From: Callorhinchus milii
Lineage: Eukaryota
Length of the DNA stretch: 64,000 bases
Reading direction: 5' to 3'
Assembly (NCBI RefSeq): GCF_018977255.1
Contig: NW_024704745.1
Span: 51,522,001-51,586,000 of the forward strand
Shown: positions 24,301-60,822 of the stretch, in pieces
Numbering within the stretch: the first letter of the stretch is position 1
How the letters are laid out: the number at the start of each line of letters is the position of its first letter
Made by a program: the position numbers and the translations under genes
The notes under the pieces: generated by a model
What the model was told of the DNA's origin: nothing
Database searches by the model: none
Seen by the model: the letters and a program-made list of their open reading frames with translations, nothing else

Positions 24301-25088
24301 CATGGTTCTCATCTCCTCCACCTACCCGACCTCCCACTAAAACTCTCCGAACCCATACGCAACCTAGGCGTCAGGTTCGACCCCCAATTATCCTTCCTCC
24401 CCCACATTCGGTCCCTCACTAGTACCGCTTTCTTCCATCTCCGACAAATTGCCAGTCTCTGACAATATCTCACTCCATAAGCCGTTGAAACCCTGATCCA
24501 TGCCTTTGTCACCTCTCGGCTGGACTATTCAAATGCCCACCTTGCCGGTCTCCCCTCCACTACCATCCTTAAAATCCAGGTCATACAAAACTCTGCCGCC
24601 TGCATTCTTACCCGCATCAAACTCCGCTACCCGATTACCCCAGTCCTTGCCAGACTGCACTGGCTGCCTGTCCTAGAGAGGATCGACTTCAAGGATCAAC
24701 TTCAAGACCTCACCTTTGACTTCAAATCCCTCCACTCCTCTGCACCCCCCCTACCTCTCTGACCTCCCTCTCCTCAAAATAGTGCCCGTTGCCTTCGTTC
24801 CATTGGGTCTGGCCTCCTCCTCGTCCCCCGAATCCTCCGCTCCACCCTCGTCGGCCGTGCCTTCAGCCACTATGCCCCGAGGCTCTGGAACTACCTTCCT
24901 CACTCCCTTCGCCTCGCCCCTTCTCTTCCTTTTTTCAGGTTTCGGCTGAAGACCTTTCTTTTCGACCGTGCCTTTGGTCACCTTCCTCCCTCTCCCCCTG
25001 GCTCGGCCCTGGGATCCGTTACTATGAAGTGCTCTGAGACGCCGTCCGGCGTGGAGGGAGCTATACAAATCCAAATTATTGTTGTTGT
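21330..25088 (+). mobile_element. Near full-length degenerate L2-clade LINE (second family), interrupted by a SINE
   Basis: QNVRSL, GLTKTWL, MGDVNLH, GHALDLV (APE); [26 protein letters not shown] (RT); LHWLPV; 3' stem-loop and short (TTG)n tail; 5' boundary approximate. Confidence 0.92.
22643..22953 (-). mobile_element. tRNA-derived SINE, short subfamily, nested in L2 ORF2
   Basis: Reverse complement of the 19017 copy; L2 coding sequence resumes on both sides. Confidence 0.93.
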
Positions 25089-26647
25089 CCCCCTTCTACC
25101 ATCCTGGTAGTTGCATGCTGAAACAATTGAGATGTTGATAGCAATTAATTCTGTATGGATTAGTCTACCATCACAGTTGAAAGTTTTGGGAACCTTAGAT
25201 CCAAAGTTGCCTAGTTCTTCCAAGCTTACCACAATTCCAAGCGTACTACATTGTTCTCCAAGTAGACCGTTACCTTATCAACAAACTTTTGGAGGTTTGA
25301 ACGTGCAACCTAATGATTCTAAGTCCAGCTTTGCAAATCTTGATTGGCTTCTTTTCAAAAAGAAAGGAAGAATATAATTGTTGCTGTATTTCAACTCAGA
25401 ACAAATCCAGCTAGAATTACATCTCTGGCTAAGAAAAAGTTCCCCTAAAAAATTCATAACCTATTTTTAGCAATTCAGTACTGAGGAAAACATACAAGAA
25501 GCTAACAACATTTTATTTTGACAAATGGCCTTATATTGTGCATATTGTGTACAAAATGTAAAGAGGCAAATAACTGGTATGACAGAATGTGTAAATAATT
25601 TAAAATAGCAAAGCAGCGGGATATTAATATAGGTTTACACAGTGATTCCACACACAGTTATTTATACCAGACACAGTAGAGTATCACTGCAGCTGACCTT
25701 TGGGGGGGTTGGGGGGGGGTCACCCTCACATATACTTTTGTCTTGTCAAGGAAGTGACTTTGTACTCCATTTATTTTAATTGTAGTGTTGCACAGCTGGC
25801 AGCATGTGGAGCCAAATATCAGTTGTGTATGATGCAGAACAACTGTTCACTGTGATATGGGAGAGATCCATCAGTACAAAGGGGATAATCTGGTTACCTT
25901 CATATGAGATGGGTGTGGTTTATACTGATTCGGAAAAGATGATCAGTTTGTAATTCAGCAAGTTCTGACCCAGATCTGACTTCAGAAAAGCACCAGTAAA
26001 CTGTGTAAAAAATGCAACATAAAATCCAGTGGCAATGCCTTTCAGCAAAGTATAAATAGTAAGTAAGTCAAAGTGACAGTTCAGACACTCACAGTATATT
26101 CAACCAACCAAATTATGTATATATAGGAACAGGAGTAGGCCGTTTAGCTCCTCGAGCCTGCTCCACAAATCTATAAGATCATGGCTGAAGGCATCAAGGT
26201 TGCTGAGAGCACAGATGGTGCCCAGATCTCCGTTTTGTCAATTCACATCATTCCAAAACAAACGTTATAACAAATTTATTCTGTGAATCACTTTGAGATG
26301 TCTCAAGAATGTGATGAGATGCTATATCAGATGTAAGCTTTACTAGTATAATGATAAATGGAAACTCATAGGTTAACAGTCAGATACACCAATTAAATCA
26401 TACTCAAGAAAGAAAGAGTGAGAGTTCAGTAATCACCAGTATTGATCATGGCTGTTACTTGTTCTCAAAAGATGAAAGCATTTACATTGTGACCAAGAGT
26501 TGAGACATACAGGCAACTGTATTTTGATTTTGAGATTATAAACAGCATTGTTACATCTAAAGCTGCATCCTTCTCCACCCCAGATATTATTCTTTTCTTG
26601 TCATAATCTCTGGCTTCATTGTTTGATATCAGGTATAAGTGGCAAAA

Positions 26648-33234: not shown

Positions 33235-34240
33235 TATTTGTGGTGGAAAAGTACAATAAAATGTTAACAATGCATTTTAATGTTTAAGAACTTGATATTT
33301 CTACATATAAGAACCTTTTAGTACGTAGTCACAAAAACGCCATCATATTTGTTTACCTTTAATGAATTTACAAATAAAAAATATTTGTGAAGACATTCTT
33401 AGGGAGATACTGCATCAATCATTGTATCATTATATGACTGACCAAGGCCATGAATCCCCTGAAATTTTTTTAAAAATTGCAGATTATGTTCTTATTGGAA
33501 CAACTGGTTGACATGTATTTAGTTGTCCTCTTGCAGTAATGCATCAATGGTGGAAAATGGCATGAGGTGTAAGATTGTTGAAGGGATCAGTAAAAAAAAC
33601 TCTCTGATAATTTCAGTGAAAGTGCCTTAAAAAACACTGCTGTCAAGGCTTCACTGCCTTTAAACAAGGCCCAGAAATGTAGCAAGAGTTTGGATAGAAA
33701 GTCTTGACTCAGATGTCGCAATGACCGCTGGTGATTGGTATCTGCTCATGACTGCTAACAATTCAAGAGCAGATTAATGGACAGCCATCAGGACAGAGAA
33801 ACTCTCCCACAGAATACCTTAATCGATGACCCATCTTCAGGCAAGGCTGCAATCAGAAAGATCTCAATAAATAGAAGGGAAAAAAATGACTGTAAAGATT
33901 TTTAAAAATATTTTACTTTGGTCACAGTTGTGGTTGTTATATTTATTTTATTTTAGTTGGTTAGGGTTATACTTGAAATGTGTAGTTTTAAGCTGTGAGC
34001 TTAAAATGACCAGAAGCAGTCAACCCACAAAGCAGCTATCTCTTTGAACAATGGCACTCACTGAGCTTTATCTAGTCGGGCACACTATTGATTTGTTTAC
34101 TTTGATTATTAAAATTATCACAAAAATAACGATAAGTCACAAATGGATAAATATTTTTGATTATGTTGACCAAAGTGGAGCAAAACAAATGATTGCCATC
34201 GTATCTGAGCCAGTTACATTTTTGTTTCTGCCTCCAGTAC

Positions 34241-34396
34241 CTATTCCTTTTCGCCCTCATCTTCAGCAACAGGCTCTGGGACACTGTTTAACTTCATCTC
34301 CAGTTTGTACAACTGCTGCAGCTCGTCATGGAGTTCACTCTCCAACTCTCGGTTATCTTTCAAAAATTCTTTGAATCTTCTCAAACAGTTTAAATC
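34241..34396 (-). CDS. CXorf38: CXorf38 homologue exon 6 (ends in TAG, directly followed by a GT donor)
   Basis: cttttgaag| DLNCLRRFKEFLKDNRELESELHDELQQLYKLEMKLNSVPEPVAEDEGEKE*; resembles human KEFLRNNEDL. Confidence 0.8.
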   Translation of the reverse strand, partial: DLNCLRRFKEFLKDNRELESELHDELQQLYKLEMKLNSVPEPVAEDEGEKE

Positions 34397-34954: not shown

Positions 34955-35131
34955 CTGTTCCTGTAATTCCTTTTGTTCTTCTAGTATGAAACACAGTTCC
35001 TGCAGTTTTTCTCTAACTAGTCTCAGTTCAACATTGTGGATCTCCTCAGCATTCAGCTCTTCATCCGACGCATGGGCATCATCAACCATATCCATTCCTG
35101 ATATTTGAACTTTCCAGCTGGATGATATAAT
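34955..35131 (-). CDS. CXorf38: CXorf38 homologue exon 5
   Basis: caatag| IISSSWKVQISGMDMVDD...EIHNVELRLVREKLQELCFILEEQKELQEQ |gtacaa, 177 nt; resembles human LLTSDWAVHI...EMQLLKEKLQE. Confidence 0.85.
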
Positions 35132-36597: not shown

Positions 36598-36747
36598 CTT
36601 TTGTATTATTTTGCTTGTTGTTTTTGTTTCAGCAACGTGTTGAAATTCCTGTAGAAGGTCAAGAATTTTCTGCACGCTGTTATCTAACCATTCGACAGAC
36701 ACACTCATTTCAGTGGAATGCATCAACTCATTACGACATTTAATTAC
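36598..36747 (-). CDS. CXorf38: CXorf38 homologue exon 4
   Basis: ctttcag| VIKCRNELMHSTEMSVSVEWLDNSVQKILDLLQEFQHVAETKTTSKIIQK |gtaact, 150 nt; human VIKCRNEIMHSSEMKVS. Confidence 0.92.
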
Positions 36748-37339
36748 CTGAAAGCAAGCATGACCGTGGCTCAGTATAGATCCAACATTCATCATATTTA
36801 TACTTGACAGAAAATACCAACTACTGTAAACAAAACATTTTCTATTAAGACAGTCATTTTATGCTGGATCTAAAATTGGGTGATTAGTTCATTTGAAGCC
36901 TTGGATAGGTCGTAAGGGAACGGGCTGATAAGTGGAATGTTATTCAGTGTAGAAAAATGCATAGAAAGAATACTGTATGAACTTACTGTAGGTGGTTGGA
37001 AGATAATTTTTATATAGAGTTGCTGGAACGTGAAATACTTTATCACAAATAGATGAAAGTGGATGCGTAGCATTACTTAAAAGGGATAGATAATTAGAGG
37101 AAATATAATATTAAAGGATGTGAGAAAAGTGTAAAGGAATTAGTTTAGGCTAGATAGCTCCAGCGGAGTAGTTAGAACCAGGAACATTATACAATGGGCT
37201 GATAGTTTCCTTCTGTGCCTTAAATTTTAATGATTCTATGGTCACAAGTAATTCAAAGAAAAAAGAAAAAATGAATCCGAAAGGTAAAACATTAACTACA
37301 GTTTTCTTTCTTACCCATACTTTGCAATGTGTTTACTAC

Positions 37340-37462
37340 CTCAATTAGTTTTCGACGTTCAACAAAGCTGAAGTGATCGCAGAAATTAATGAGATTTAAA
37401 AGAGCTGCAACATCACAATTTTCTGGTCCTTGTTTATTCATCTGCCCACGAGGCATATAGAC
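37340..37462 (-). CDS. CXorf38: CXorf38 homologue exon 3
   Basis: ttctgtag| [41 protein letters not shown] |gtagta, 123 nt; human [31 protein letters not shown]. Confidence 0.92.
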
Positions 37463-38689
37463 CTACAGAAAACAAACCGGTTTTCATCATATCATTTTGC
37501 ACCAACAAAAGATAATAAAAAAGAAATTGACGTACACACATTTACTAAAAGGCTTGTGCTTTAAAATCTCTTGAGGTGTTCAATAGCAAGTCTTGATGTA
37601 ACTCCATGTGATCTCAGATGCTTCCCAAATTTGATTACTTTGATCAAAATTTCTATTAATGTGACAGAAAACAAAACTTACCACTTTGCAATATCTAAGC
37701 AATCAGCTTATTTCTAGAAAAGTTTTAGTTGGAAATGAAACTGAATATGATTGTTTTTAGCAATATAAATTAGCTCAATTTGTTTTAAATTGATATCAGT
37801 TATACCAATCTGCCTTCCTACTCCATTCCTCATTCCTTTTTCTTTATTATGCTCATTATCTACATAAATCTTTCTTATCCCCACCAGCTTCTCCCCAGAC
37901 ACCTCCAAGTTTCTAAGTTTTGCCTTTTCTTCTATTTCTTCCCTTTCTCGATCAATGTTACTCTTTTTCCAATGAGGCTTTCTCAATTTGGTTTTCCTTC
38001 CCCTTGTTGCTTTTAAAACTATTTAAGTAATGCGTATCTAATAGATAATTAGAGGAAATATATTATTAAAGGATGTGAGAAACGTGTAAAGGAATTAGTT
38101 TAGGCTAGATAGCTCCAGCGGGGTAGTTAGAACCAGGAATATTATACAACGGGCTGATAGTTTCTTTCTGTGCTACAAATTTTACAGTTCTAATATATAG
38201 GCCTGTTTTTAAAAGGATAACATGCTCCTCAAAGGAAGATAATCAAAGTTACACATTGTAATTAAGAATGGTTTCCTCAGGGAAACATTGTCCCTTAATA
38301 AAAAGGCCCAACCAAGCTTACAAAACCAAGCTTGCTGCAGTGCACCATGCAATATTGTACACCAAATCAATGCATGTTTCTAAATAGGTAGAAATTAATA
38401 TTTATAAATGCATTAAATATGTAACTTTTAGAGGAAAAAAATTATTTGCTACTTAACAAACAGAAACAAAATATTTTATGACATTAGGCATTAACATTCC
38501 CCCACAAAATACACAACTTTACAGTATATCCTGCGGAACGCTTTGACACATCTCAATGACATGATAAGGCATTATATCAAATACAAGTATTAACATTATT
38601 ATTATTATTATTGTATCATGAATCTAAAGAAATTGTATTCAAATCTTAACATATTTACTGCCATCTTCCGGTGAAATTAGGAAATGAGC

Positions 38690-38960
38690 AGATATTATCT
38701 GTTCTTCAGATGAAACGTTAAATCAAGGCCCCAGCTGACCATGCTGCTGATTTAATTGGATGTTAAAGAGCCCATGGCAATATTTCAAAGAACAACAGAG
38801 TTATTCTGGTTTCCTGGATCATATAATTTCCAAAACACATTAATTGGTTATTTATCTCATTGGTGTTTGTGATACACTGTTGGGCACAGATTAACTGTAT
38901 TAACAACAGTCAGTACATTTCAAAGCAAATCACTGTTTGTAAAGTTCTGAGAAGTTTTGA
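38690..38960 (+). mobile_element. Old DeuSINE-like fragment
   Basis: cttcagatgaaacgttaaatcaaggcccc...gatgttaaagagcccatggca...ctcattggtgtttgtg resembles the recalled Deu domain of AmnSINE1/SacSINE1. Confidence 0.6.
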
Positions 38961-39762
38961 CAATCTTACCCAACCTAACCCTAAACCTGACAAGATGCCA
39001 AAGTATCATTTTTAGAATACCTACTGATGAGACTATTAAGCGATTAAGCATCAAACTCAGTAAATAGTAAATGCTTGGGTTGGGATTATTCCTTGATAAG
39101 AATTACCTTAGAACAGGTCAACAACAAGATGCATTTTAAACTATGTGTCAGTTATTTCAGCTCTCCAAGATACTGCCCTTTGTGAATGGTTGTTATTGCT
39201 GTAAAGTTCAAAACATATCAAGTGCTAATTCTACAATTTCCCTCCTATTCATATCCACCCAAATTATCATTTTCCAGAAACAATGGCACAGGTGACCTTG
39301 GTGTAGAGAGGAGTAAAATCAGCCAGGACCCTGCTCATGCTCCCTATCTAGTGACTCTGAATAAAACAAATTTGTGGATGTTGGTTGGGGAGGCTCAGAG
39401 TTGATTGTGCAACCAAAATAGACATTTCAACACAATAATGTACTATTATCAGTCATTATTATTTGAATTCATTGTAATATTGTTTTACGAGATTGACATT
39501 ATCCTTACAATTAACAAGTGCAGTACCATATATTTATAGTCCTGGGCTGAATGAAAAAAATGTTATCAGTTGATAAACGTATCGCACACAAGCAAATGAG
39601 TTGCTCATTTTAGTCCCTGCATAAACGTGTGCTCAACCATCTGCACAGCAGTAGGATGAAGTAAAAGGTTGAACATATTTAACTAATTTGTGAAATTCAA
39701 CATTTAATGGAAAATAAAATTGTTTACCACAGACCTATAAATTTACATCATTAAAACATTAC

Positions 39763-39897
39763 CTTTGCTACTTCCCAGGGGTGAATAGGCCACCATTGTG
39801 GCTTGCAGTTGCCCCAGTATATTATACCATTTTGATGTGTATGGTGTCTCAGAATTTCCTTTTTCCATTCTTCACACAACCAGCAAGCCTACTGAAA
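39763..39897 (-). CDS. CXorf38: CXorf38 homologue exon 2 (in-frame TAG at codon 3 if the ancestral acceptor is used)
   Basis: ttttcag| [44 protein letters not shown] |gtaatg, 135 nt; human FQPQCQVCAEWKREILRHH...WGNC...WEVAK. Confidence 0.9.
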
Positions 39898-40459
39898 CTG
39901 AAAACATAACACATTTTAAAAGTTATCTGCAACTCTGCTACCCCCCGAGTGAAGGGCAACATTATAAATGCAAGTTGTTTGATACTATTTCAACTGCGAC
40001 GTAAGATGGTAAACAGAGCAACTTGTGTACAACTCGCAAAGTCATATTGCGCTTAGCAGTGAACTCGCAACACCCCAAACTTCCAGCTTCCCATTAGAGA
40101 TGTCCTCTATAGAAAAAAAATACAACTTATTTAAAGATCATAAGACTCATCGGCCATACTCTGATTTGAGGAGAGCTGCCCTTTCAGTCCTTTTAACCGC
40201 AGGGCATTCCGCACCTCTGCCCCACACTCTGGACCTCCATCAAATAACCCCACCACCTCACCCCCTGCCTCGCCTCTAAAGACCTTCTTCTTCGACCGTG
40301 CTTTTGGGCCCCAAACCCCTGCCTCTCCAGCGCCCCTGGGGGGTGAATTGCAAGTGCAAGTTGCTATCGTTGTTGTTGCTGTTGGTGCGGTGGGTTGGAA
40401 ATCACTTCCCCGCAGGAACGCTCTGCGGGGCGACGCAATCCTGCTTCCCGTGGGCTGAC

Positions 40460-40735
40460 CTCGGTGGGCCGGGGTCTGCAGGCAGTCGCGCAGGAGGCTC
40501 GGCGCAGGGTGGGGTTGCGGTGCAGGATGGAGCCGTGGAAGCGGCGGATCTCCGCTCTGACGAAGCTCAGCAGACAGTCGCGCAGCTGCTGCAGACACCA
40601 CCCCGCCTTCAGCCGGCGCGGGTACCCCGCCTTCAGCCGGCGCGGGTACCCCGCCTTCAGCCGGCGCGGGTACCCCGCCTTCAGCCGGCGCGGGTACCCC
40701 GCCGCGTGCAGGCGGACACCCAGCTCCGCCAGCAT
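40460..40735 (-). CDS. CXorf38: CXorf38 homologue exon 1
   Basis: MLAELGVRLHAAG(YPRRLKAG)x4 WCLQQLRDCLLSFVRAEIRRFH...CRPRPTE |gtcagc, 276 nt; human [32 protein letters not shown]; syntenic position between ATP6AP2 and MED14. Confidence 0.9.
40601..40703. repeat. Perfect 24-bp coding minisatellite, 4.3 copies
   Basis: (ccccgccttcagccggcgcgggta)x4 + ccccgcc. Confidence 0.98.
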
Positions 40736-41235
40736 CGCGGCTCCCTGAAGGATGACGTCAGGCCTTTTTGGGACGTCCTCCCGACATGAAGGGCGCTCTA
40801 TAAATGGAATCTTGTTGTTGTTGTTGTTGTTGCTTTCCCGGTCCCGGGGCTGCGCGAGGCTCGGGAGCAGCTCCAGGAAGCAGCGCGGACAGAAGTGACG
40901 CCACGTCTGTAGCCCAAAACCCGCCCAAAACAGTGCGTCCGCCCTCCGCCGAGCAGCGGGAGACCCCCGGTTCAGGTCTCTCAATGCTTTTCAAGCAAAA
41001 AGAAAAAAAAAAAGGGGGTCTTCAAAAGGGAAACAACAGGTGTTTGGAGGGGTTCAAACGATTGCAATTTAAATTTTAAAAAATGGTGCGCCCGCCCGCA
41101 ACCCGCGCGTTAAACGCACGGCAACAGTAAAAACCCGCCCAATCGGGCGTGAAGCCGCCCAACTCCCCCGCCCACACTGCCAGTCCAGGCATTTCCGCGC
41201 ACGCGCTCTGCCTCCTTGTGAGCCAGGGAGGAGGG

Positions 41236-41384
41236 ATAATAATAATAATAATCCTTGCATTTGATATAGCGCTTTTCACGTCGGGAGAACGTCCCAAAGC
41301 GCTTCACAGAATATACTGTAAAGTGAATTGACTGTATATTTGTGGGCGAACGCGGCAGCCAATTGCGCACAGCAATGTCCCACA
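41236..41384 (-). mobile_element. 5'-truncated SINE copy
   Basis: 3' half of the SINE body with (ATT)n tail and well-preserved CpGs. Confidence 0.88.
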
Positions 41385-41882
41385 TGTGTCCCCTGTCCCA
41401 GGGTTTCTGCTCTGGGCTCCACAAGCTCAGCCCCCACTCCAGACCCAATTCCATTTTTCGAACATTTCAGAGTGTGCAGAATTTTTTTTTTTTTTTTTTT
41501 ACACACACACCCACACGCACACTCTTAAATGCAGTCTTGATTTTTTTTTTCGCGGTGGCGGGAGGGAGGGTGGAAGTGGGAGGGGGCCGGGCGGCGGGGT
41601 GTCTGAGACGCGTGTCAATGCGTGGCCATCACCATGCTTAAGAGTATCCCAACCAGAGTTTCCCACCCCCCCCCGCATCTCACCAATGAAAAGGTTTGGT
41701 TTGGTGTGGATACTCTTTTAAGCAAGGTGATGGGTTTCCGCACCACCCCTCCCCCATTCCCGGGCTCGACTGTTCGGTGCTTTGGCACGTCCTCCCAACG
41801 TGAGAGGGAATTAATGTCATTTTGTTGTTGTTCATATGTCAGACAACTAAAAATCCTTGCATTTTATCCAGCGCATTGTCAT

Positions 41883-44069: not shown

Positions 44070-45467
44070 GCTCCCTAATAGAGTTGCTTACCAATCAGTT
44101 TAACACACCAATACATGTAAAGCTCAAATATGTATTGGAACCTTGTTTTGATATTTTTAGAAGTCTCTTTATTGCATTGTAAAATTTCAAAATAAACCTA
44201 GACTGCATAGGTGACAATACAATTCTTTTAATACTTTAGATTTCTGTAGGTCACCAGAAACGCTCACCTCTGTAGATTGAACAAACTGAATGCCCCCCAC
44301 TATTATCACAATAGTAAAGCTATTAATAAATCAGGATAGATTTAATCCTGAAGATTTCACTTAATTGAAAATAAATATTAAGGAATTAAAAAGAATTAAA
44401 TATTTCACTGGTCCTCCCATCATTTCTCTTTCTGTCTTTTAAAATTTGAACATAATTTTTATTCTTTTAACAGTTTACTTTTCTAATTGCTTTTTCTCAG
44501 ACTTAAAACTACATTTTCCTTTTGTCTTCCAATATCTTGCTCCTGCCATCCATTTGCTGCAAATGCAGTCACTACTCTTAACTATCAATACTGTGAAATG
44601 CTGATAATATTTTGATGCAATAAGGCGCTATATCAAATGCAAAGAATATTATTCAAGAGATTGGAACTTTTTTTTCAAAATATTTTTTCACTGAATGGCA
44701 ACTTCAAAGGCAGCTTTGCCGAAGACGAAAAAGGCAGGTTCTCAATATCCAAATGACTGCATCACAACTACACATCTGGTGTAATACTCATTTCAAAACT
44801 TGGTAAGACAAATATTTGAACTATTACAGAAAATAAAGTAGATACAATGAGTGGTATTTTATCTGCTCGTTTATTAAATATTGCTTCCGAGTCAATAGGA
44901 CCTAACGACTCAAATTTTATGTAAAGATTTAAAGCAGTCATAATAAAATACAACTCCATTACTTTAAAGTTTATCACAGTTTTACATTACAATAACCATC
45001 AATGTAACAAATAGGTTTAAGAAAAAAAACTTAAGCTATTATGCCACAACATAGGAAAATTGACACATTTACATTCTCAAAATAAAACAAAAAAAATCAA
45101 AATGTTGGCATCTTCATAATCTAATTATCTTCTCATACATATTATAACAAAGATTAAATCTAAGTCAACAAGATGACCAGTAAAAGGAATCTCACTGGAG
45201 ATTTAATTTTTTCTTGAAATGCAGTTTTCCAAAATACAATATATATATATAACAGCAGGTAAACAAAGCGATGAAAAATTGATGAAAGAAGTGCATCCCT
45301 GAAAAATAACTTTAATGGATCATGCTCTTTTTAAGTCACTTTAGAGCATGAATCTCACGATTCATAATCCTGTTTTGCATCAAACACTGTTACTTTTATA
45401 ACTCATCCATTGAGCTTCAGTCATTTTTTTTCTCTGTTCTGAGAACCCCATAAGGCAGATTGTAGTG

Positions 45468-45541
45468 TTACTGTCGACCCCCAGGGGGCAGTGATAGATT
45501 TGCCATCAAGTCCCGCACCGCTGCAAAGATTGTGCAGTCAC
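45468..45541 (-). CDS. MED14: MED14 last coding exon
   Basis: ttttcag| (G)DCTIFAAVRDLMANLSLPPGGRQ*. Confidence 0.96.
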
Positions 45542-46462
45542 CTGAAAAGGTGTCACAGAAAATACAGGAGATCACAAGTCGATAAAGATGTCAAACAAAA
45601 TAATTCACAACAAGGTCATTTTTATATCCTCCAAGATGTACTCTTTATAGTAGTGGCAGGGGTTGCTATTTGAGCAGCAAGCAAAGCTAAAATAAAACAA
45701 GTGGGTGGTCCAAAAACTATGGTAGATTCCACCAGAGATTCAAATTTTATTTGCCATCTCCAGTGATACTTGTTTTAGAAATCTTTGCTGTATTATTTGT
45801 TTGGAAATAAATATTCCTTCAGCTGCAAATAAATGGGTTTCTGAGTAAGTAAACCCATTATTCTTGATGCTAGAAAACTGCCATTTTGTCTTAAAATAAA
45901 AAAAACACATTTCTGGATAATCATACAGGAAGAAAAATAACTTCCATAACAGTTTTCATGAAGGGCTTTCACGTGGATGTAACAACGCAGCATAGGGTAC
46001 AGGTTTTGATGAATGAGAAAAGGAAGGGGGAAGGAGAGGGAGAGAAAGAAAACACACCCACAAAATAGTCAATCCACTTTACAATCTATCCTGTGAAGTG
46101 CTTTGAGATGTCTTGATGACATGATAAGGCGCTATATCAAATGCAAGGATGAGTATTATAAAGAAAGACGTATGGATACGCCTGGCAGGTTTGATGGTTT
46201 TCACCGTGTTTTGTATTGTCTTTAGAGCTTTCTATTCAGTCATCCTGCAGTTAAAAATAAATCACTGTTTCCCAATTGGAAGAATGCTTCCCACACATTT
46301 TAATAAATATAAGAAACATATTTTGGAGTTGGACTGATTTCACAGGCTTGGGTTTACCCTTTTTTACGGTCAGCCAGGCCGGTTTGAGAGATGCGGAAAC
46401 AATGCTCAAGAGTATCTAAACCAAACTGAGAATTCGACCTATACATGGAAATGTTGGTTTAC

Positions 46463-46652
46463 CTTGCTGTGGCTGATGTACCTCTGCAAACCTCCTCAGA
46501 ATGTTGCTAACCATCGAAGCAGCTGCACCCGATGTATTTTGTGGCCGAGGAATGTCGGCTTGCTGGGTTGTCCCTGTTGCCATGTCATAGACAATTGGCA
46601 CAATTATGCTGATCGGTTCCTGTGGCACCGTCAGTCGCTGCGTGAGCTGGAG
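46463..46652 (-). CDS. MED14: MED14 exon
   Basis: LQLTQRLTVPQEPISIIVPIVYDMATGTTQQADIPRPQ...NILRRFAEVHQPQQ; ag/gt, 190 nt. Confidence 0.96.
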
Positions 46653-47110
46653 CTAAGAGAAGAAAAGGAGACAAAGAAAAGTACTTTGAACTTTGGAATC
46701 ACCAATACAGAGGATTCAGAAATTAGCTCATTTAGTTTTCCTTCCAATTTTTCCATAAAAAAATGATTAAAGTGCTTTAAGACATTTCAACATATAAGCC
46801 AAGTTTCAGCAAGTTCTTTGTTTGTTCCATCATGGTCTGTGGCTAGAACAGATTTGTATGGAAAGAAAAGGCGTTTGATTCAGGAAATGATTAACCAGAA
46901 GATTCTCAGCGAGGTCTTCTTCCCATTTTAAAACAATAATATAAGAATCCTTGCTTTAGGAGGAGGTCTCAAAGCAATTCACTGAATGTATTGGTGGTCA
47001 CTGCTATAAAATATATTTCACCTACAAAATAAAGTCACTACAATTAACTTTATGATACTATTGTTCAAATGACAAGTTAAATTAATCTCCTTATAACTGA
47101 CCATCAATAA

Positions 47111-47408
47111 CAATACACAAAATACTGCAGATGCTGGAAATCATTTTTTACAAAACCCTCCCCCTTTTGTTTTACCCACCATCAACTCTTTAACCCATCA
47201 ACTAACACATTCTCTCCTTTGTCTTTTTTTTGTCCTCTTTGTCTTCCTTGTCCTGCCTCCCCCTCTCAACTTGTCCTTAAAAACCTCTCCCTCCCAACAT
47301 GCCCCAGTTCTGACGAAGGGTCGTGGACCCAAAACGTTGACTCACTTTCCTTTCTCCATAGATGCTGCCTGACCTATTGAGTTTTCCTAGCTCTCTCTGG
47401 TTTTGTTT
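47111..47408 (+). mobile_element. Penelope-like element remnant with inverted 5' piece and hammerhead-like core
   Basis: Inverted terminal piece aaaatactgcagatgctggaaatc at left; agttCTGACGAagggtcgtggacccAAAAcgttgact core; flanked by catcaataa direct repeats (47102-47110, 47409-47417). Confidence 0.7.
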
Positions 47409-47651
47409 CATCAATAATAGCTCATTATCGATACAACAACAACAGATTATATTTTTATAGAGCCTTTCACGTCAGGAAGACGTCCCAAGGCGCTGGACAG
47501 TCAGGGATCCGCTCCTGAGCAGGGGGTTGGGATCAGGAGCGGTGGAGGGTAAGGAGGGCACGGGTAGGAGGGTGACAGTAGGTACGGTCAAAGAGGAGGG
47601 TTTTGAGACGGAACCTTATAATCTCAAAGGAAACAAGGGTTTACTACTTAC

Positions 47652-47777
47652 AAAAAACAGCATCTTGGATTTTAAAACCACAGCAGGTGTTCCTGGAGGA
47701 GCTATTGGTGGAGCACTGGGGGGAATTGTCAAACAGAATTGCACATTCCACCTCAGCTGGGCAGCCTGATCTGGAAA
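47652..47777 (-). CDS. MED14: MED14 exon
   Basis: [42 protein letters not shown]; 126 nt. Confidence 0.97.
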
Positions 47778-48119
47778 CTAGAGAGCACGTTAAACTCTTT
47801 TACTCAGTTCCCTTCAAATTTTCTTATAATACAACACAAATTTATATTTATAAGGGCAGAACGACTAAAAGTCCGCCCACTACTGTTCTTGAAATCAAAT
47901 GGATAAAATGAGGCATTTTGAATAACTATTATAGAATATTTTTGGCACAACAATTAGCTAATATGCAACAGTCTAACCAATATTTTCACTGACAATAATT
48001 ATAGCAAATTATAAAAAGCATTACTTTGTTATCATTCACAAGTCTAAAGCATGGTGTTGAAATTAACATTTAAGACAAATCTATGCCTTCATTTTGTTTT
48101 AGTAAAACTGGACATAACA

Positions 48120-49000
48120 GAACAACAAAATAACATTTGTATAACACCTTTCACGTTGGGAGAACGTGCCAAGGCGCTGGACAGACAGAGTTTCGGTCCC
48201 GAGCTGGAGATCAGGGTCAGGGAGGGCAAAGGGGGAAGCAGGGAGATCGAAAGCATGGTCGAAGAGGAGGGTCTTGAGGTGGGTCTTGGTGGCAAGGGAG
48301 GGGGCGAGGTGGAGGGACTGCGGGATGGAGTTCCACAGGGTGGGGGCAGAGTGGCAGAAGGCCCGCCTGCCAATCGTGGGGCGAGCGAGGTGGGGGACGT
48401 GAAGCAGGCCGGAGTCCGCTGAGCAGAGGGAGTGAGCGGGATGGTAGGGGGTTAAGAGGTCGCAGAAGTGGGGGGGGGGGGGAGTAAGACCTTGGAGGGC
48501 TTTGAAGGTGAGGACTAGGATCTTGAACTGTATGATAGGAAGCCAGTGGAGTCGGGCGAGGATGGGGGTGATAGGGTCATGGAGCCTGGTGGGAGAGAGG
48601 ACACGAATTGCAGAGTTCTGGATGATCTGCAGCCTGTGGAGGGAGGAGTTGGGGAGGACGACTAGCAATGAGTTTGCATAGTCAAACCTTGAATTAATGA
48701 AAGCATGTATGAGGGTTTTGGCGGCCTGCGGTGTGAGACAGTAGCGGAGCCGGGTGATGTTGCGAAGGTGGGGGAAGGCAGAGGGGGTCATGGCGCAGAT
48801 GTGGGGAAGAAAGGTTAGTTGAGAATCAAAAAGATGCCAAGGTTCAGGATTGGTTTAAGTACACGCATTTGTGTGTGCAACCATGGATGGTGATGTTGTC
48901 AGTGCCTGAGGTGAGGAGGCGCTGACGGAAGACAATCAGGAGAGCCTCAGTCTTGTTGACGTTCAACTGAAGAAAATTAGCTCTCATCCAGGACTTGATG
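48120..49000 (-). mobile_element. L2 LINE 3' ~0.9-kb fragment in a MED14 intron
   Basis: NFLQLNVNKTEALL, HLRNITRLRYCLTPQAAKTLIHAF, LHWLP, TLWNSIP. Confidence 0.92.
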
Positions 49001-49517
49001 AGAAGAGATTTGCTAAATTTATACTGTGAGGTACTGTCACACGACAAGGCCAAATAGGTACTGACAACATAAAAGACATCCAACCAAGCTTAAGCGTTGG
49101 ATTGCAATGCTTTTTGTTTGTATGAGTATTTAGAAGCAGAGTTAAAGAACAAATCTGAATGGCACACCTTAACTCCCCTAGCTTTATTTAAAAAACTATA
49201 ACAGGCATGGTGATATATTGCTTTTTTAGGAAATAAAAGATTGTTGAGTTCAATTTGACTTAATAAATATTCCCTAGAGTTCAAAAATATTCTTCTAATG
49301 AAGCAATTTCACATTGCTACTATTGAACTTGCACCACAAATAGCCACATCTGCCAAAATTTAAATAGCTTTATTATAAATACCACAGCACGTTTTGTAAA
49401 AGGCCTCTTATTTCATTGAACAGAGAAAAGATCAGTCTGATTCAACATATTAAATGGACAAGAGTGATCTTTTCTTATGTTTCTGTGAACAGTCTGATTC
49501 AGGGGAAGGGGAGAGAG

Positions 49518-49894
49518 AATAATAATCCTTGTATTAGATATAGCACGTTGTCATGTCTTCAAGATGTTTCAAAGCATTTCACAGAATATACTGTAAAGTG
49601 TAGTAACTGTGTGTTTTGTTGGAAAAACGTGGTAGCCAATTGCACACAGCAGTTTCCCACAAACAGTTGTGGATTGAGTGACCAAATTATCTTCTTTTTA
49701 AAAAAAGGGATTATTAACCCTGGAAAATAATCCACCAATTGACTAACACCCGGGTTCCTACTTACTGCTAGGTAAACAGAGGCATGTATGTGGAGTAAGG
49801 AAACTTGCCTAAGATTTCGTCCTGCCCAGGAATCGAACCCAGGTCCTCTCGCTTGTGAGGTAAGCACACAAACCCCTACCCTATGGGACTCCAC
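49518..49894 (-). mobile_element. tRNA-derived SINE, long subfamily
   Basis: Diverged full-length copy. Confidence 0.88.
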
Positions 49895-50089
49895 ATGGAG
49901 GCTGGAAGAGGGTGGAGAGCACATTAACCAACTCTTTTTTGTTTTTTCTGTTTGTTCTAATGTACACAAAGTGGAAAAAAACAGACAAATTATTGGGTCT
50001 TAAACGAATAAGGCTTTGTACAAGAATACAGTTCTGAACTAAAACCTGAACTAAAAATATTCAAAAACTCTCAAAGTCAGCTCATTTAC

Positions 50090-50197
50090 CAGTTCCAGTT
50101 TCATAATCCGCACACAATCCCGGAGAATCTGAGTGTGGGCTCCCAATAGCTTAGCAAAGGCATTTAGTGTGTTGGCTTTAAATGGAGGACCTGCAAC
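50090..50197 (-). CDS. MED14: MED14 exon
   Basis: [36 protein letters not shown]; 108 nt. Confidence 0.96.
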
Positions 50198-52430
50198 CTA
50201 AATAAAACATAACAGAATTAATGATATTATTGACACTGCTGCACAGATTTAAAAGAAGCCTGAATTCAATTAAAAGCAGAAAAGGTATGTTGTACCATCT
50301 GTGAATTGTAAATGGTTCAATATGTTGTGATGTGAAAAATGTGTACATTCCACATAGCATTTCACTTGTAAACTAATCTTAAAATAAGATGGCACTACTT
50401 TTTTCATGCAGAGGATATCAAAAATATAGATAGGGTTCAAGATGTAAATGCAGAAAGACAACGTCCTTCTCATCCATTTTTTATGCAAAAGCCCATCATT
50501 TCTCACATAATCCCCTTTAATGTGGAGAACGCGGCATTTCAAACACTACACTTCTTCATGACAGTTTTTCATGGATTTAGACAGCAATAACGCAGTCTGA
50601 AACTTGACCTTTCATGGTCACTAAATGTAATGATATTGGACGAGAAAAATTCCTGGTGTTTGAGGGGAAAAAAATATAATTAACTAACATCCAACAAGGA
50701 GACCCACACTGAATATACTAACCATGTAACATTTCACTTAAAATTATGTTTACAAATTCATTTTAAAAATGACAATCAATGAATATCATGAGTGGAAATA
50801 ATGCACAATTCTGAAGTATATTACATAAATTGACTTTTCTCATCCATTGATCGTAATCCAACAAAGTACATTACGTTTTGTGTTGACAAGTTATTGTTTA
50901 CAGATTGACAAATTGTTTACAGGTACAAAAATTAAGCTTGCAAATAAACTCTCAAAACAACTAATTTCCAACAATAATCCAATGTATTACAAAGGAAAGC
51001 TTGATAAAAAAACACAGAAACATTTAGTTGTTTTGACATAAAATTGTTAAGGGAACTAGATGATGCAAATATGAATGCCAAGGTTTGAATCTACAGCAGA
51101 CTGACAAATGAAAGTTTCCTGTCTCCGTTGTCTGCATAGCTCACATGAGATTGGGATGCTTTGCAAAGGTTGGGGAAAAGGAGAGAAGCTTCATCTGCCA
51201 CACTTAACCTGTGCTAACGCACTGCTTATCCGATGCTAAAAATGGGTGTTGAAATGGTGATTGATGCAACAGCAACATCCCTCACCTTGATAATAATAAT
51301 CCTTGCACTTAATATAACGCTTTATCACGTCTTCGAGACGTCCCATAGCGCTTCATAGAATACACTGTGAAGTGAATTGACTGTACTTTGTGGGCGAAAC
51401 ACTGCATTTTAAGGAACACAAACTTTCACCCTAAGCTTTTTTTAAAAGAAAGATTATTCAGTGACATGCAGGTGATAACAAAAACAGATGGTTAACATCA
51501 TGCTTATTCTTTAAACAAACCAAAAGAAATGAGCATATATTTTGTAGACGATGTATCAGAATACAGACATGACATTAATGTTTTAGGATCATGTTCAGAC
51601 AGCTCCTATTACAGGGCCTTTGGGCGCCTTGGGACATCCTCCTGACTTGAAAGGCACTATACAAATGTAATTTTGTATTGTATACATTTTATTTAAACAG
51701 CGTGTGAGGGAAATCGCTCAGGTTTGTTGAAATTCCAATAAAGTACTCAAATCACTAAGTGGATGTCAGTAAATATAGACATTACTTGCTTCATAACATT
51801 TTCACAAAATTAGGCGAAATACTCATTGAGGTTATTACGATATAAGTAGCTTTAAAAGCATTCATTCAATTTCTCTGATGAGTTGGATATTTGCCTATAA
51901 ATTCACAATCACCATATATTGTAGAAAACTGTGAAGGCGTTTTGACGAAATAAGGCGCTATCTCAAATCCAAGGATTATTATTGTATTGAAAAGGATGTA
52001 GAAAACAACCAATGGGATCGTTCAACTAGGAAGTTGTTTTCATGGATCGAGGAAAGCAGTGAAATACAATTTTACTGATGTAAAGACTTGAAATAGTTAC
52101 TCACAATGGTCATGCCTCTTACAGCACAGAATCACTAAAAGCCTCCATTAGTCAAGTGTTTTGGTTATTTACAGTGACCTAAAATTGCACATTTCTCCAC
52201 AACAATCAGATATAAACCCACAACGTCACGTTAGCACCCAAATTAGCACTTGACTGATGGTAATTAACATAGCCCAGTATGTTGGTATATTGGGTTAAGG
52301 GGGAATGAGGAAAGGAAACTGTCAAGAAAAAGATCACTGGAAACTTCCTGCCTGACCAGTTCCTTGAGTGACCGATGTAGGTAATATTTAGAATTGTTAC
52401 AGCAAGAAGAGAATGCATTTCATATCTTAC

Positions 52431-52610
52431 TCTCGTTTCAAAGAACTTTTCCAAGACTTGCAGTTCTTCTTGTGTCCATGGGTCTGTTGTTTCGGGCGTC
52501 ACTTTAAACTGCAAGGTCTGGTAGGTCTGTGGGTTCAGTGCCACGCGACACTTCAGTGCTTCAGTCTTAAACATGATTACACCTGGTTCATTGGAGTTTA
52601 TAAGCTGCAA
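52431..52610 (-). CDS. MED14: MED14 exon
   Basis: [25 protein letters not shown]...[12 protein letters not shown]; 180 nt. Confidence 0.97.
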
Positions 52611-52812
52611 CTAAAATTAGACAAGACAACATTCAAAACGAATTTTAGGCAACCTGGACAAACAAAAGTTACCTGTGGAGAGACAGTATCCTCGGCTATG
52701 GAAATTATAATTCCTACAAGTGTAGACTAATTATAACATTTCCAAGAAAGATTAGAGATACCCTAACTTTTCAAATTTTACAATGGTCTCCAGAAAAAGA
52801 ACTTTATCGTAC

Positions 52813-53048
52813 CGGTTCTTGTTGAATTATCCTTTGTAGGTGTCGCCTCATCATAACAGATCCTAAGAATCGCTCGAGAGGGGAACAAAGGTAACTGCCA
52901 GCCAGTCCTGGCACAAGACCTGGTGTTGGTGATGGGCAAAGTAGAATATGCAAGGCATTATGAGTTAAGATGGTAGGTATTGATGCAGCCCATGATCGCT
53001 GAGGTAGTGTACGAGGTGGAGGCATATTTGTCGGCATTGTTTGGGAGC
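52813..53048 (-). CDS. MED14: MED14 exon
   Basis: SQTMPTNMPPPRTLPQRSWAASIPTILTH...CSPLERFLGSVMMRRHLQRIIQQEP; 236 nt. Confidence 0.97.
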
Positions 53049-53428
53049 CTGAAAATACAGAAAACGCAAGTCAATAAAAAAGAACTTTGCACATTTAAAG
53101 TACCATATGCAGGTGTTTTGATAACTTATGTAACAAAATGTCAAGAATTTTACAAGAATTTCAAAATGGTTTACATTAATTATGTTGCCACGTAGTTTGC
53201 ACAAAAGTGTGGATGGATAAAAAATAATTCAAAATGTAAATATGCATGGAAATTATTCTATTGGAATCAGGATTAGGATACTGGAGGCAAGAGTGAATTT
53301 AAAATGAGAATAATCAAATATATTGGTGAATTCAATCTGCATTTCATGATTTATTTCAACTCAGATGGATTAATCCTTTTGATACAGCATTATGAAAAAG
53401 AGTCAAGTCAGTAACTATTGAGACTTAC

Positions 53429-53608
53429 TTGTTCCAGCTCGTGGAGAATGGGAGACGTCAGGGATAGGGGAGTGCAAGGAGGGGTTTGCCGGAGACATTC
53501 CAGGTATGCGTGCTAAAGCCGGCCCAGGCAACTGTGGAGACCCAGGCCAGGTCCCCGGTCGCTGACTGGGTGATATAATTGTGTAAGGTGAACTTGGGTC
53601 AATTGTGC
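53429..53608 (-). CDS. MED14: MED14 exon (Ser/Pro-rich)
   Basis: [25 protein letters not shown]...SHSPRAGT; 180 nt, phase 1-1. Confidence 0.95.
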
Positions 53609-53924
53609 CTGAACAAATAAAATTGTACAGTTTAAGTAATAATTACAAGTTCATTTCAGTCAGAAATTGGTTGTCAATCTATACTTTACATGACCCAACA
53701 CCATCATCCCACAGTAATCTCGGTTGTATCTCAGGACCCACATTATAAATTAATGTGAAATAATGCCCTGATTCCACTTCAGACCCAGGGAAATTTCCTT
53801 GCATAGGTGGCATGATTCCATGGAACCGTCAGTCTGGTTTGGAATACCCTTAAGCGTTGCAATGGATTTCTGCCTGTTTAGGCATCCGACTGACCAAAAC
53901 AAAATCTACAATTACGAACAATTT

Positions 53925-54350
53925 AGAAACATAATTAGGCCATTCAGCTCCTCCAGCCTGTTCCGTCAATCTATAAGATCATGGCTGATCTGCACCTCAA
54001 CTCCAATTACCTACCCTTGCCCCATATCCCTTGATACTCTGACCTAACAAATATCTATCCATAGTCTTGAAAATGGAAATGGATCCAGGATCCACAGCCT
54101 CTTGGAGGAGAGAGTTCCAGATTTCCATGACCATTTGGTGAAAAACTAGTTCTAATTTTAAGATCCTGCCCCTTTGTTCTGGATTCCCCTACCAGAGGAA
54201 ATACTTTCTCTGTATCTACCCTATCGATTCCCTTTATTGTTATAAAAACCTCAATCAGATCACCCCTCAGCCTTCTAAACTCAAGGCAATAGAGATCAAG
54301 TTTATCTAACCTGTCCTCATAATTTAACCCTTTAAGCCCTGGTAACACTC
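53925..54350 (-). mobile_element. CR1 LINE 3' fragment
   Basis: [10 protein letters not shown]...[14 protein letters not shown], typical of the CR1 ORF2 C-terminus. Confidence 0.88.
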
Positions 54351-54497
54351 GAGTGAAATTTCCACAGGAATGAATTGCCACAAACATTAAGTCAATGAAT
54401 CATCAATCTTGCTTACTAGAGGAAGAGGCATGGAAGTAACAGCTCTAAAATGTAGCATGAAAAGACCATTTTAGTGAAGCAGCGAGAAGACACTCAC

Positions 54498-54629
54498 CGT
54501 GAGGACTTGCAAAGTTTGGTGTCTGTCCCATTGAGATTCCAAGGGAAGAGGGGGAGGGAGACGGTACGAATGATGCTGGTGAAGATGCTCGCAATGCACC
54601 ACTTGGAGAATTAGCTGGATGTAAATTCC
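54498..54629 (-). CDS. MED14: MED14 exon
   Basis: [43 protein letters not shown]; 132 nt, phase 1-1. Confidence 0.95.
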
Positions 54630-55778
54630 CTGCACAAAACAATGCATTTAATTAAATTGCTTTTAATACAGCAATGGTAATTCTCTTTAAAGGGTTGAGG
54701 CACTGTGACTCAATAAATTCACAGGAGGTGAATTTATCCAATGACAAACTGAATTTCACCACTTGTGGACATACGATCAAGAATGCATCGAAGAATTAAC
54801 CTTGTTCTTTGTGCTTAATGATAGGAACAGGTTACCAGAAGGGTTACTGAGGCAAGGACACTGGGCTCATTTAGGAAACAACCTGATGCTGCAATAGGAA
54901 GAACAGGTATTTTGGAAGGATCAGATGAAAAGGGCCAAAGGGCCTAATTCACCTTAATTCCTCTTGTAAATTCTTACTCGTGTACTTTAATGAAAGAAAA
55001 ACTGTTTTCCCTGGTCTATGGAATTTCTATGAGTACAGAGTATAAGTAGAACATGAAAATGATGTTGCTTGCCAACAAGGTAGATATAATTTTTGAAACC
55101 CCAAACTAAAATTGTCTAATTTCTGCCACCCTTTCACAAGCAAACTTAAAAACAAAGTCCACACACGCATACTAATACACTGAAAAAAATCACAGAATAA
55201 CAAATACATTACTGTAGCAAACTACAACACCAATGACTTGACACAGATTGTTTTGTCATTATCCCGAATTAAGAGAATATGGGCAATGTGGCATTGCTTA
55301 TTGTAGATTTATACCTTACATAGCACAGAATCCAGAAAAAAAAACTGATAGTAATTGCTAATATTCAATGCTGCTCAACATAATGAGAAATTTGTCTTGA
55401 GAACTGAGAATTCGTCTTGAGATAATGAGAAATTCATCAAATTTCAGCAGTAATGGAGTGCACCATCACCCGTGACCCAATTCTTTGAAACTCCATGTCT
55501 CAATCCCTCCTCCCCCTCTTTATTCATCTTCAATTCCCACCAAAGCCCTATCTCTTCAACTGCACCCAAGGTCACCTCCCCCCCACTCCCCCACGATTGA
55601 CATCCAACTCTGCCCAGCGCTCCGAGACGCTATTCTGCGTGTAGGGCAAATTTTATAAATGCAAATTTTTGTTGGAAGGGTTTTGCGCTAAAATACTTCT
55701 AAATTACCTCATATCCATCAGAAATAGTTTTCTTCTTTTCATGCTTAAGACTATAGCAAAACAAAAAAAAACACTTAC

Positions 55779-55887
55779 CTGGTGATTGCGTAGGCATCAT
55801 TTGTGGTGATGGAGTCACAGTATTGTGATACGATGTAGGTGGTGATGTCAATGGGTATGTTACGCCTCCACTAGCTTTGACAAAGGG
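55779..55887 (-). CDS. MED14: MED14 exon
   Basis: PFVKASGGVTYPLTSPPTSYHNTVTPSPQMMPTQSP; 109 nt. Confidence 0.94.
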
Positions 55888-56325
55888 CTAAGAGAATAAA
55901 ATAGTTACATGTTAATGTTAGTAACATAGGACCAGGATGGGCTCATGTTAGGTCAAGCATGGAAAACCCCTTGGTTTATTCCTACCGCCGCACCCCCACC
56001 CCCACACTCACTCTCTCACACACACGCACACTCACTCTCTCACACACAGAATTCTAGAATAATCACTTTGTAACAAAGCTCACACAGAGTTTTTTTTTTA
56101 AAATACATGTTTGGTTCATCTGGAAATACAACAGCAGCAAAAGCTCCTGTGTCCCAGAGGGAATTTCCTTCACCTATACTGCCAAAACACATCTTCTTTC
56201 CTTTGCACCATTAGTGGCCTACCTTCAATGCTTTATAGAGACCATTAGTGATAAAGGAGCTCAAGAGCAACATGCCTGTCCAAAGCTCAGGGAAAACAAT
56301 TAAATAGTTGGCACAGTGCAGCTCA

Positions 56326-56623
56326 TAATAATAATCTTGCTTTTGATATAGCGCTTTTCACATCTTCTAGACGTCTCAAAGTGCTACACAGAATATGCTG
56401 TAAAGTGAATTGACTGTACATTTGTGGGCGAAACGCGGAAGTCAATTGCGCACAGCAGTGTCCCACAAACAGTTGTGGATTAAAAATGATCAATTTATTA
56501 TTGTTTTGTTTTGGAAGGATTATTATTAGTGTGTGGAGTAAGGAAACTTGCCCAAGGTTTCGCCCTGCCAAGGTATCTCACTTGGAAAGCGAGTGCTTTA
56601 ACCACTGAGCTACAGGACGCCAC
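56326..56623 (-). mobile_element. tRNA-derived SINE, short subfamily (B box deleted)
   Basis: Reverse-complement copy with a small deletion in the head. Confidence 0.88.
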
Positions 56624-56807
56624 ATCTGGATGGTCCCAGTACAAAGTCGTACTAATTATTTTTTCTTAAGTAAAAATTGGCCCAATATATTCAGTACTGA
56701 TAACGTCACTGCTCCAAGTCAAATTTCTTTTGAAGAAATATCTCACATAAATAAACTAGGCAGAAGCACATTAAAACAAAAAGGCTACTGAACAGCAGGC
56801 ACTGTAC

Positions 56808-56939
56808 CTGCTGTGGCTGAAGCTGAGAGATGAATGACTCCATCATGTCTCCACCAATAGGAGATGGTGGATTATCATCTTCATTCACCGATCGCCTGCG
56901 TGCATCCTGGGTGCTGTCCACAAACATATTCAAGAATGT
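56808..56939 (-). CDS. MED14: MED14 exon
   Basis: [44 protein letters not shown]; 132 nt. Confidence 0.97.
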
Positions 56940-60735: not shown

Positions 60736-60822
60736 CTAGAGGGTGAAATTCAAGGTACATTATTTCTCATTTTACTAAAGCTGTTATTTCATTACTTTTT
60801 TTCTTGAAGTTATGTTTACTAC

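What the first reader, a model, noticed from the sequence alone, without database searches (positions are those of the whole stretch)
39886..39900. Nonsense codon in CXorf38 exon 2 that doubles as an in-frame rescue splice acceptor
Seen: the minus strand reads ttttcag|TTT CAG TAG GCT TGC. At the acceptor orthologous to human (FQPQC), codon 3 is TAG (39889-39891), giving a 94-aa product and a likely NMD target. That TAG is also an AG dinucleotide: splicing to it drops exactly 9 nt and restores a 335-aa frame, whereas splicing to the middle CAG still hits the stop. Exons 3-6 are open with canonical splice sites. Inference: this is a young pseudogene or null allele, a sequencing error, or a gene whose output depends on choosing among three AGs (NAGNAG-coupled NMD).
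Basis: partly seen in the sequence, partly recalled or inferred. Interest (0 to 1): 0.7.

Follow-up and report, generated by a model that had tools for sequence, protein, structure and literature searches.

The report
Segregating stop in decaying chimaera CXorf38
The stop codon in this cartilaginous fish's CXorf38 gene is a real variant carried by some animals and not others, in a gene whose front end carries further damage, so it is likely ordinary gene decay, and the splice site it creates is likely a by-product rather than a control switch.

Summary
In detail: TAG at 39891-39889, with 94, 92 or 335 aa products from the three AGs. It is not an assembly error and not fixed. Of three DNA runs laid, two read TAG and one reads TGG, which removes the third AG. 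The 'rescue' is in frame by construction. It cannot help frameshifted alleles, and it shortens a cysteine spacing that is 10 residues in 222 of 230 homologues. Database models for this species skip exons 1-2 (203 aa; likely start codon in intron 2); that product folds poorly as a whole (pTM 0.46 against 0.82). No RNA contig crossed the exon 1-2 junction, so acceptor use is untested. Verdict: likely a young polymorphic loss of full-length CXorf38. Stop bypass at a tandem acceptor is already known (CFTR E831X). Interest 0.3.

The parts
40460..40735 (-). CXorf38 coding exon 1 (92 codons, GC 0.74, GC3 0.92), in a CpG-rich region
40600..40703 (-). 24-nt x 4.3 perfect in-frame tandem repeat (8-aa unit). 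Reads YPRR where homologues read Y[KTI]NW. Unique to this locus. Copy number likely varies between animals
   Evidence: 4 exact copies in the genome, all here; 54-nt loop contig in 3 of 3 DNA runs, depth 60.8, 70.6, 14.9
40553..40554 (-). Site of a polymorphic 2-nt deletion (frameshift) in exon 1; not in the window's own sequence
   Evidence: in X1's 1439-nt contig, and as a 59/61-nt pair of contigs in X3 (depth 2.8/2.5); X2 not covered. Products 96-100 aa
39886..39904 (-). Three tandem AGs at the intron 1 / exon 2 border; exon starts 39897, 39891, 39888
39889..39891 (-). Nonsense codon TAG; SNP at 39890 (TAG/TGG)
39763..39897 (-). Exon 2: second cysteine pair of the predicted Zn ribbon; keeps 16 of 16 conserved columns
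38659..38664 (-). ATG-GCA followed by a GTAAAT donor in intron 2: inferred source of the first two residues of the 203-aa database protein. A at -3, G at +4
   Evidence: unchanged in the contigs of X1, X2 and X3 that cover it; junction not seen in RNA
38699..38946 (.). Old interspersed-repeat relic just upstream of that ATG (39 other copies scored, 68-79% identity); candidate acceptor at 38894
37340..37462 (-). Exon 3, open; holds the conserved Asp that a preprint proposes as catalytic
36598..36747 (-). Exon 4, open; holds the RNELMH (Rx4H) HEPN-type motif
34955..35131 (-). Exon 5, open; joined to exon 4 in an X6 contig
34241..34396 (-). Exon 6, open, ends with the normal stop

Best explanation
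The TAG is a real nonsense variant that differs between animals, in a single-copy CXorf38 gene whose full-length protein is likely no longer kept by selection in this chimaera lineage, and the extra AG it creates is likely a by-product with at most minor use. Shown: two alleles at 39890; a second frameshifting variant and a motif-destroying repeat in exon 1; spliced exon 4-5 RNA contigs. Inferred: the spliceosome mostly uses the first CAG (39897), 18-25 nt after branch-point-like motifs, so TAG-allele transcripts stop at codon 95 and would go to NMD. Inferred: any 335-aa product made from the third AG would lack the N-terminal motif and have a shortened cysteine spacing. Inferred: exons 2-6 still look intact because the loss is young, and the 203-aa database protein is the longest frame left rather than a working enzyme.
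For:: TAG in X2, X3 and the window, TGG in X1. The 2-nt deletion is in both runs that cover it (X1, X3). Every contig seen over these sites in the four genomes carries at least one of the two lesions, or comes from an animal with only TAG; the deletion gives 96-100 aa with any acceptor or with exon 2 skipped; four columns invariant in 49 of 49 homologues (N, K, N, W) are all changed in exon 1; the 49 homologues break 0-2 of 17 conserved exon 1 columns, the window 4; the repeat unit is in 3 of 3 DNA runs; cysteine spacing is 10 in 222 of 230 homologues; the third AG gives 7; no second copy found; both database proteins for the species leave out exons 1-2; exon 1 supplies the long helix 12-49 (pLDDT 95-98) of the shark model; pTM falls from 0.82 to 0.46 in the 203-aa protein. 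(passages): the AG nearest the branch point is usually preferred, and CAG > TAG.
Against: Exon 2 keeps 16 of 16 conserved columns and exons 3-6 keep 27 of 30 (homologues break 0-3), with no long protein branch (0.011-0.023 of tree length), so relaxed selection is not shown there. The RNELMH motif and the proposed catalytic Asp are intact. The gene's 3' part is spliced in contigs of two studies. The long exon 1 branch (2.9-fold; 40 bootstraps, 1.6-5.1) is largely a GC shift also seen in amniotes (GARP 0.41 against 0.37-0.40), so it is not counted as decay. Only 3 animals of one study were typed, from contigs at depth 6-12 that drop variants. The two variants in X1 lie 660 nt apart, so their phase is not proven, and an allele with TGG and no deletion may exist.
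Confidence: 0.65

Rival explanations
1. The gene is being remodelled, not lost. Exons 1-2 have become non-coding, and a start codon in intron 2 beside an old repeat drives a selected 203-aa protein from exons 3-6 that keeps the HEPN-type motif.
For: P0146 (RefSeq XP_042190444.1 and XP_007899732.1, UniRef V9LE86) is Met-Ala plus exons 3-6 letter for letter. The only ATG-GCN-donor in the gene is at 38664-38659, with a good start context, unchanged in 3 of 3 DNA runs. All lesions seen so far are in exons 1-2. Exons 3-6 show an ordinary protein rate.
Against: The junction 38659-37462 was not seen in any RNA contig. The product loses Pfam positions 1-108 of 305 and models with pTM 0.46. If the exon starts at 38894, five upstream ATGs precede the start. 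A similar N-truncated isoform is annotated in Mobula, which has a full-length gene (P0196). Exons 3-6 were not typed in the DNA runs, so the clustering of lesions is partly ascertainment.
Confidence: 0.17
2. The gene is still functional. The nonsense allele is tolerated because leaky splicing to the third AG (or skipping of exon 2, 293 aa) gives enough working protein, as in CFTR E831X.
For: The frame is open from 39888. CAGTAG is a 'plausible' tandem motif, and in CFTR 12% of exon-including minigene transcripts dropped the stop. Exons 2-6 look conserved. One sturgeon gene model lacks two residues at this border (P0232), and a ray isoform skips exon 2 (P0131).
Against: Here the TAG is the third AG, behind two CAGs, and three residues go rather than one. 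It cannot rescue the 2-nt deletion, which also segregates. The product still lacks the invariant N..KNW residues. A spacing of 7 occurs in 1 of 230 homologues, with an unrelated loop.
Confidence: 0.12
3. An evolved three-AG switch couples acceptor choice to NMD and sets the gene's output.
For: The geometry allows it.
Against: The third AG and the stop are missing from the TGG allele. No homologue needs it: 222 of 230 keep the full spacing. The in-frame property is automatic and near AGs are common.
Confidence: 0.03
4. The TAG is a sequencing or assembly error.
For: X1 reads a sense codon.
Against: X2 and X3 read TAG, and both differ from the window at nearby sites (38937, 39520), so they are not the window's own genome.
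Confidence: 0.01

Closest known systems
CFTR E831X: nonsense codon removed by splicing at a NAGNAG acceptor (PMC2951375; passages and section 8 seen)
   Same: A single-base change makes a TAG next to an acceptor, giving a CAGTAG motif whose distal AG drops the stop in frame.
   Different: In CFTR the TAG is codon 1 and one residue is lost, use is shown in RNA and the product works. Here it is codon 3, behind two CAGs, three residues next to a conserved cysteine pair are lost, use is untested, and the gene has other lesions.
Polymorphic pseudogenes / segregating loss-of-function alleles (general concept, recalled)
   Same: Stop and frameshift alleles segregate in a single-copy gene that is still transcribed and spliced.
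   Different: Damage seen so far is limited to exons 1-2, and no fully intact haplotype has been shown or excluded.
CXorf38 / DUF4559 (PF15112), described as a Swt1-like HEPN family with an inserted Zn ribbon (PMC3710099, passages seen; bioRxiv 10.64898/2026.05.28.728550, passages seen)
   Same: Five exons match PF15112 and exon 3 does; four cysteines, the conserved Asp and the RNELMH motif are present.
   Different: The N-terminal Y[KTI]NW motif is replaced by a repeat, and the reference allele cannot make the full-length protein from the orthologous acceptor. RNase activity of the family is predicted, not shown, in the passages seen.

Membership tests
CXorf38 / DUF4559 orthologue | Profile match to PF15112 along the gene | tested here: met
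CXorf38 / DUF4559 orthologue | Single locus in the genome | tested here: met
   3 matches among 6 candidates, all in this gene; exon 2 region found once
CXorf38 / DUF4559 orthologue | Invariant N-terminal N..Y[KTI]NW motif | tested here: not met
   the window reads H..YPRR
HEPN RNase | Rx4H motif and partner acidic residue | tested here: met
   RNELMH in exon 4 and the conserved Asp in exon 3 (residues named)
HEPN RNase | Fold match to a solved HEPN domain | tested here: inconclusive
   best Z 7.6 to generic helical bundles, no Foldseek match at E <= 0.001; one homologue matches HEPN_Swt1 just under the cut-off
HEPN RNase | RNase activity | not testable with these tools
   needs a bench assay
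Stop bypass at a tandem acceptor (CFTR E831X type) | YAG-TAG tandem with the distal AG in frame | tested here: met
   (on the TAG allele only)
Stop bypass at a tandem acceptor (CFTR E831X type) | Distal AG used in RNA | tested here: inconclusive
   no contig of X5, X6, X7, X8 or X12 was listed across the exon 1-2 junction
Stop bypass at a tandem acceptor (CFTR E831X type) | Bypass product is functional | not testable with these tools
   indirect evidence is against it
Regulated alternative splicing coupled to NMD | Stop-bearing option fixed and conserved | tested here: not met
   polymorphic; a sense residue in all 230 homologues with the motif (annotated proteins cannot show a stop isoform)
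Polymorphic pseudogene | Disabling alleles segregate | tested here: met
Polymorphic pseudogene | An intact haplotype also segregates | tested here: inconclusive
   phase in X1 unproven; only 3 animals
Polymorphic pseudogene | Relaxed dN/dS | not testable with these tools
   no orthologous DNA held; protein-level proxies only

The most novel reading that the evidence does not exclude
A predicted HEPN RNase gene caught while shedding its front half: exons 1-2 are free to decay (stop, frameshift and expanding repeat all segregate), while a new start codon recruited beside an old intronic repeat keeps a 203-aa protein with the catalytic motif in use, as a lineage-specific truncated or decoy form.
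Probability: 0.17. Interest if true: 0.55.

Novelty: new member of a known kind. Interest (0 to 1): 0.3.

Why it matters
If the best reading holds, a gene kept in sharks, rays, bony fish and tetrapods is being lost in a slowly evolving reference species, with living null genotypes. That bears on whether CXorf38 is dispensable and warns that the species' 203-aa database entry is not a normal orthologue. It also gives a natural test of stop bypass, since TAG and TGG alleles differ by the one base that makes the third AG. It does not point to a new regulatory mechanism.

Tried and rejected
No RNA holder on record was listed. X5 and X6 (guessed RNA), X7 and X8 (one sample) and X12 gave no listed contig across the exon 1-2 junction or the 38659-exon 3 junction; this blank is no evidence on expression or acceptor use. 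In one search repeats filled the joint table (422 joints not shown). Places 40674-40746, with the start codon, had no cover in any run. Fold searches found no HEPN match; a missing match shows nothing. Rfam found nothing credible in 37300-41800. The long exon 1 branch was rejected as proof of decay because of the GC shift. A parsimony argument that TAG is the older allele was dropped: sites 39991 and 40553 show all four combinations across the window, X1 and X3, so recombination or phase error cannot be excluded. The 3-aa isoform pairs in Stegostoma differ at the exon 3 donor, not at this acceptor. No other holocephalan protein stood out among the 254 held. Paper searches 'CXorf38', 'CXorf38 + pseudogene' and 'polymorphic pseudogene + chondrichthyan' listed no report of this allele; no supplements were opened. 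Look-ups in the scan's own notes gave nothing on this locus. No splice-site scoring model was available, so acceptor strength was not scored.

Full report
1. Observation. The minus strand at the intron 1 / exon 2 border reads ttatgttttcag|TTT CAG TAG GCT TGC. A six-exon model with all introns in phase 0 gives 94 aa from the acceptor at 39897, 92 aa from 39891 and an open 335 aa from 39888. The exons match PF15112, the CXorf38 family, and one locus was found in the genome. Exons 3-6 translate letter for letter to two named Callorhinchus milii proteins, so the species is very likely the elephant shark. Elasmobranch orthologues read FQ(R/G/T/K)AC or FHVAC here, so 39897 is the orthologous acceptor.

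2. Is the double role surprising? No. With a phase-0 intron, any in-frame TAG ends in an AG on a codon border, so splicing to it is always in frame. Only the nearness matters. In this window 383 of 1866 YAG sites have another in-frame AG within 9 nt and 66 of 1866 have an in-frame TAG.

3. The base is real and polymorphic. I laid contigs of 3 of the 4 best DNA holders (one study) on 38630-40790. X2 and X3 read TAG. X1 reads TGG on a 1439-nt contig at depth 8.7. The three runs differ from each other and from the window at nearby sites, so they are distinct genomes. TGG removes both the stop and the third AG. None of 230 homologues with the cysteine motif has Trp at this position. Which allele is older is not settled.

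4. (a) A 2-nt deletion at 40553 in exon 1 is in X1's contig and in one of two alternative contigs in X3 (depth 2.8 and 2.5, so low); X2 does not reach it. It gives 96-100 aa with any acceptor or with exon 2 skipped. (b) A perfect 24-nt repeat, 4.3 copies, 40600-40703, found only here, reads YPRR where 230 of 230 homologues with the motif read Y[KTI]NW (223 YKNW; 254 proteins held, isoforms included). Four residues invariant in 49 of 49 aligned homologues are all changed. The repeat unit is present in all three DNA runs. Its depth relative to the flank (7.0, 11.2, and 1.3-2.8, against 3.1 expected for the window's array) suggests a variable copy number; contig depth is a rough measure. In the AlphaFold model of a shark orthologue this motif starts the long first helix (residues 12-49, pLDDT 95-98).

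5. What the rescue would cost. Splicing at 39888 shortens the spacing between the second and third cysteines from 10 to 7. It is 10 in 222 of 230 homologues; the 8 others include one with 7 (an unrelated loop) and one sturgeon model with 8 that lacks two residues at this border. The family is described as a HEPN domain with an inserted Zn ribbon (PMC3710099, passages). Branch-point-like motifs lie 18 and 25 nt before the first AG, and the AG nearest the branch point is usually preferred, with CAG > TAG (PMC2018619, passages). I infer that 39897 dominates. Use of 39888 was not measured: no RNA contig was listed across the junction.

6. The 203-aa database protein. RefSeq XP_042190444.1, XP_007899732.1 and UniRef V9LE86 hold Met-Ala plus exons 3-6; a second UniRef entry starts one residue before exon 3. 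Of four ATG-GCN-GT sites upstream of exon 3 in the window, the only one inside the gene is 38664-38659 in intron 2, 35 nt beyond an old repeat relic. That this is the source is inferred. That V9LE86 derives from a deposited transcript is recalled, not checked; the genome paper does list transcript deposits (PMC3964593, passages). The protein keeps RNELMH and the Asp that a preprint proposes as catalytic (passages) but loses profile positions 1-108 of 305. Its model has mean pLDDT 80.7 but pTM 0.46, against 84.8 and 0.82 for the full shark protein.

7. Results against decay. Exon 2 keeps 16 of 16 conserved columns, and exons 3-6 keep 27 of 30 (homologues break 0-3). Their terminal branches are 0.011-0.023 of tree length against 0.052 for exon 1. 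The exon 1 excess is largely a GC shift shared with amniotes. An X6 contig joins exons 4 and 5 with no differences at depth 19.8, and an X5 contig covers exon 6 with flanks that do not follow the genome, so the 3' part is spliced; both runs are RNA by guess only. These facts fit a young loss, since the species' rate is low, but they fit a still-selected 3' half as well. The sample is three animals, contigs drop variants, and the two variants in X1 are 660 nt apart, so an allele without either cannot be excluded.

8. Comparison. Removal of a nonsense codon at a tandem acceptor is known: in CFTR E831X, 12% of exon-including minigene transcripts lacked the stop and the product worked (PMC2951375, passages and section 8). 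This locus has the same geometry on one allele but a weaker case: third AG, three residues lost, other lesions. It is best filed as a segregating loss of function in CXorf38. Searches listed no paper on this allele (search listings only; supplements unseen).

9. Verdict. Observation confirmed. Young polymorphic loss of the full-length gene with an incidental AG, 0.65. Selected truncated protein, 0.17. Leaky rescue of a working gene, 0.12. Evolved NMD switch, 0.03. Error, 0.01. New member of a known kind; interest 0.3.

Noticed in passing
window 34241 and downstream: The normal stop at the end of exon 6 is followed directly by GT. An X5 contig has 428 letters past exon 6 while 34051-34240 has no cover from it, which suggests an intron in the 3' UTR.
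   Followed up: partly
window 34293: One X5 contig (depth 5.6) has a missense change in exon 6, Lys to Met.
   Followed up: partly
window 39991 and 40553: All four allele combinations appear across the window, X1 and X3, hinting at recombination within 560 nt of a CpG-rich first exon with GC3 0.92, or at phase error. PMC5519329 (passages) lists this species' PRDM9 as KRAB-SET only, with no expression found, which would fit promoter-directed recombination and GC-biased conversion.
   Followed up: partly
window 40676-40684 and repeats: Going by the conserved residues, the changes that turn KNW into PRR would all be towards G or C, and the repeat unit contains a near-palindrome. A template switch or GC-biased conversion before the expansion is a guess.
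   Followed up: no
window 40377: A 9-nt deletion in a trinucleotide run in intron 1 is seen in X2 and X5.
   Followed up: no
window 39520-39619: A divergent intron 2 haplotype with 9 differences in 352 nt is in X8; parts of it recur in X2.
   Followed up: no
P0131, P0196, P0227, P0232: Annotated forms in other fishes alter this same region: exon 2 skipped (a ray), start in exon 3 (Mobula), and shortened exon 2 starts (two sturgeon models).
   Followed up: partly
window about 1200-1450 (+) and 45000-64000 (-): Frames that look like ATP6AP2 and MED14 exons flank the gene, as in the human gene order (names recalled, not tested).
   Followed up: no
window about 8300-11500 and 21400-25100 (+): Two long, broken LINE-like elements with endonuclease- and reverse-transcriptase-like fragments (labels recalled, not tested).
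   Followed up: no
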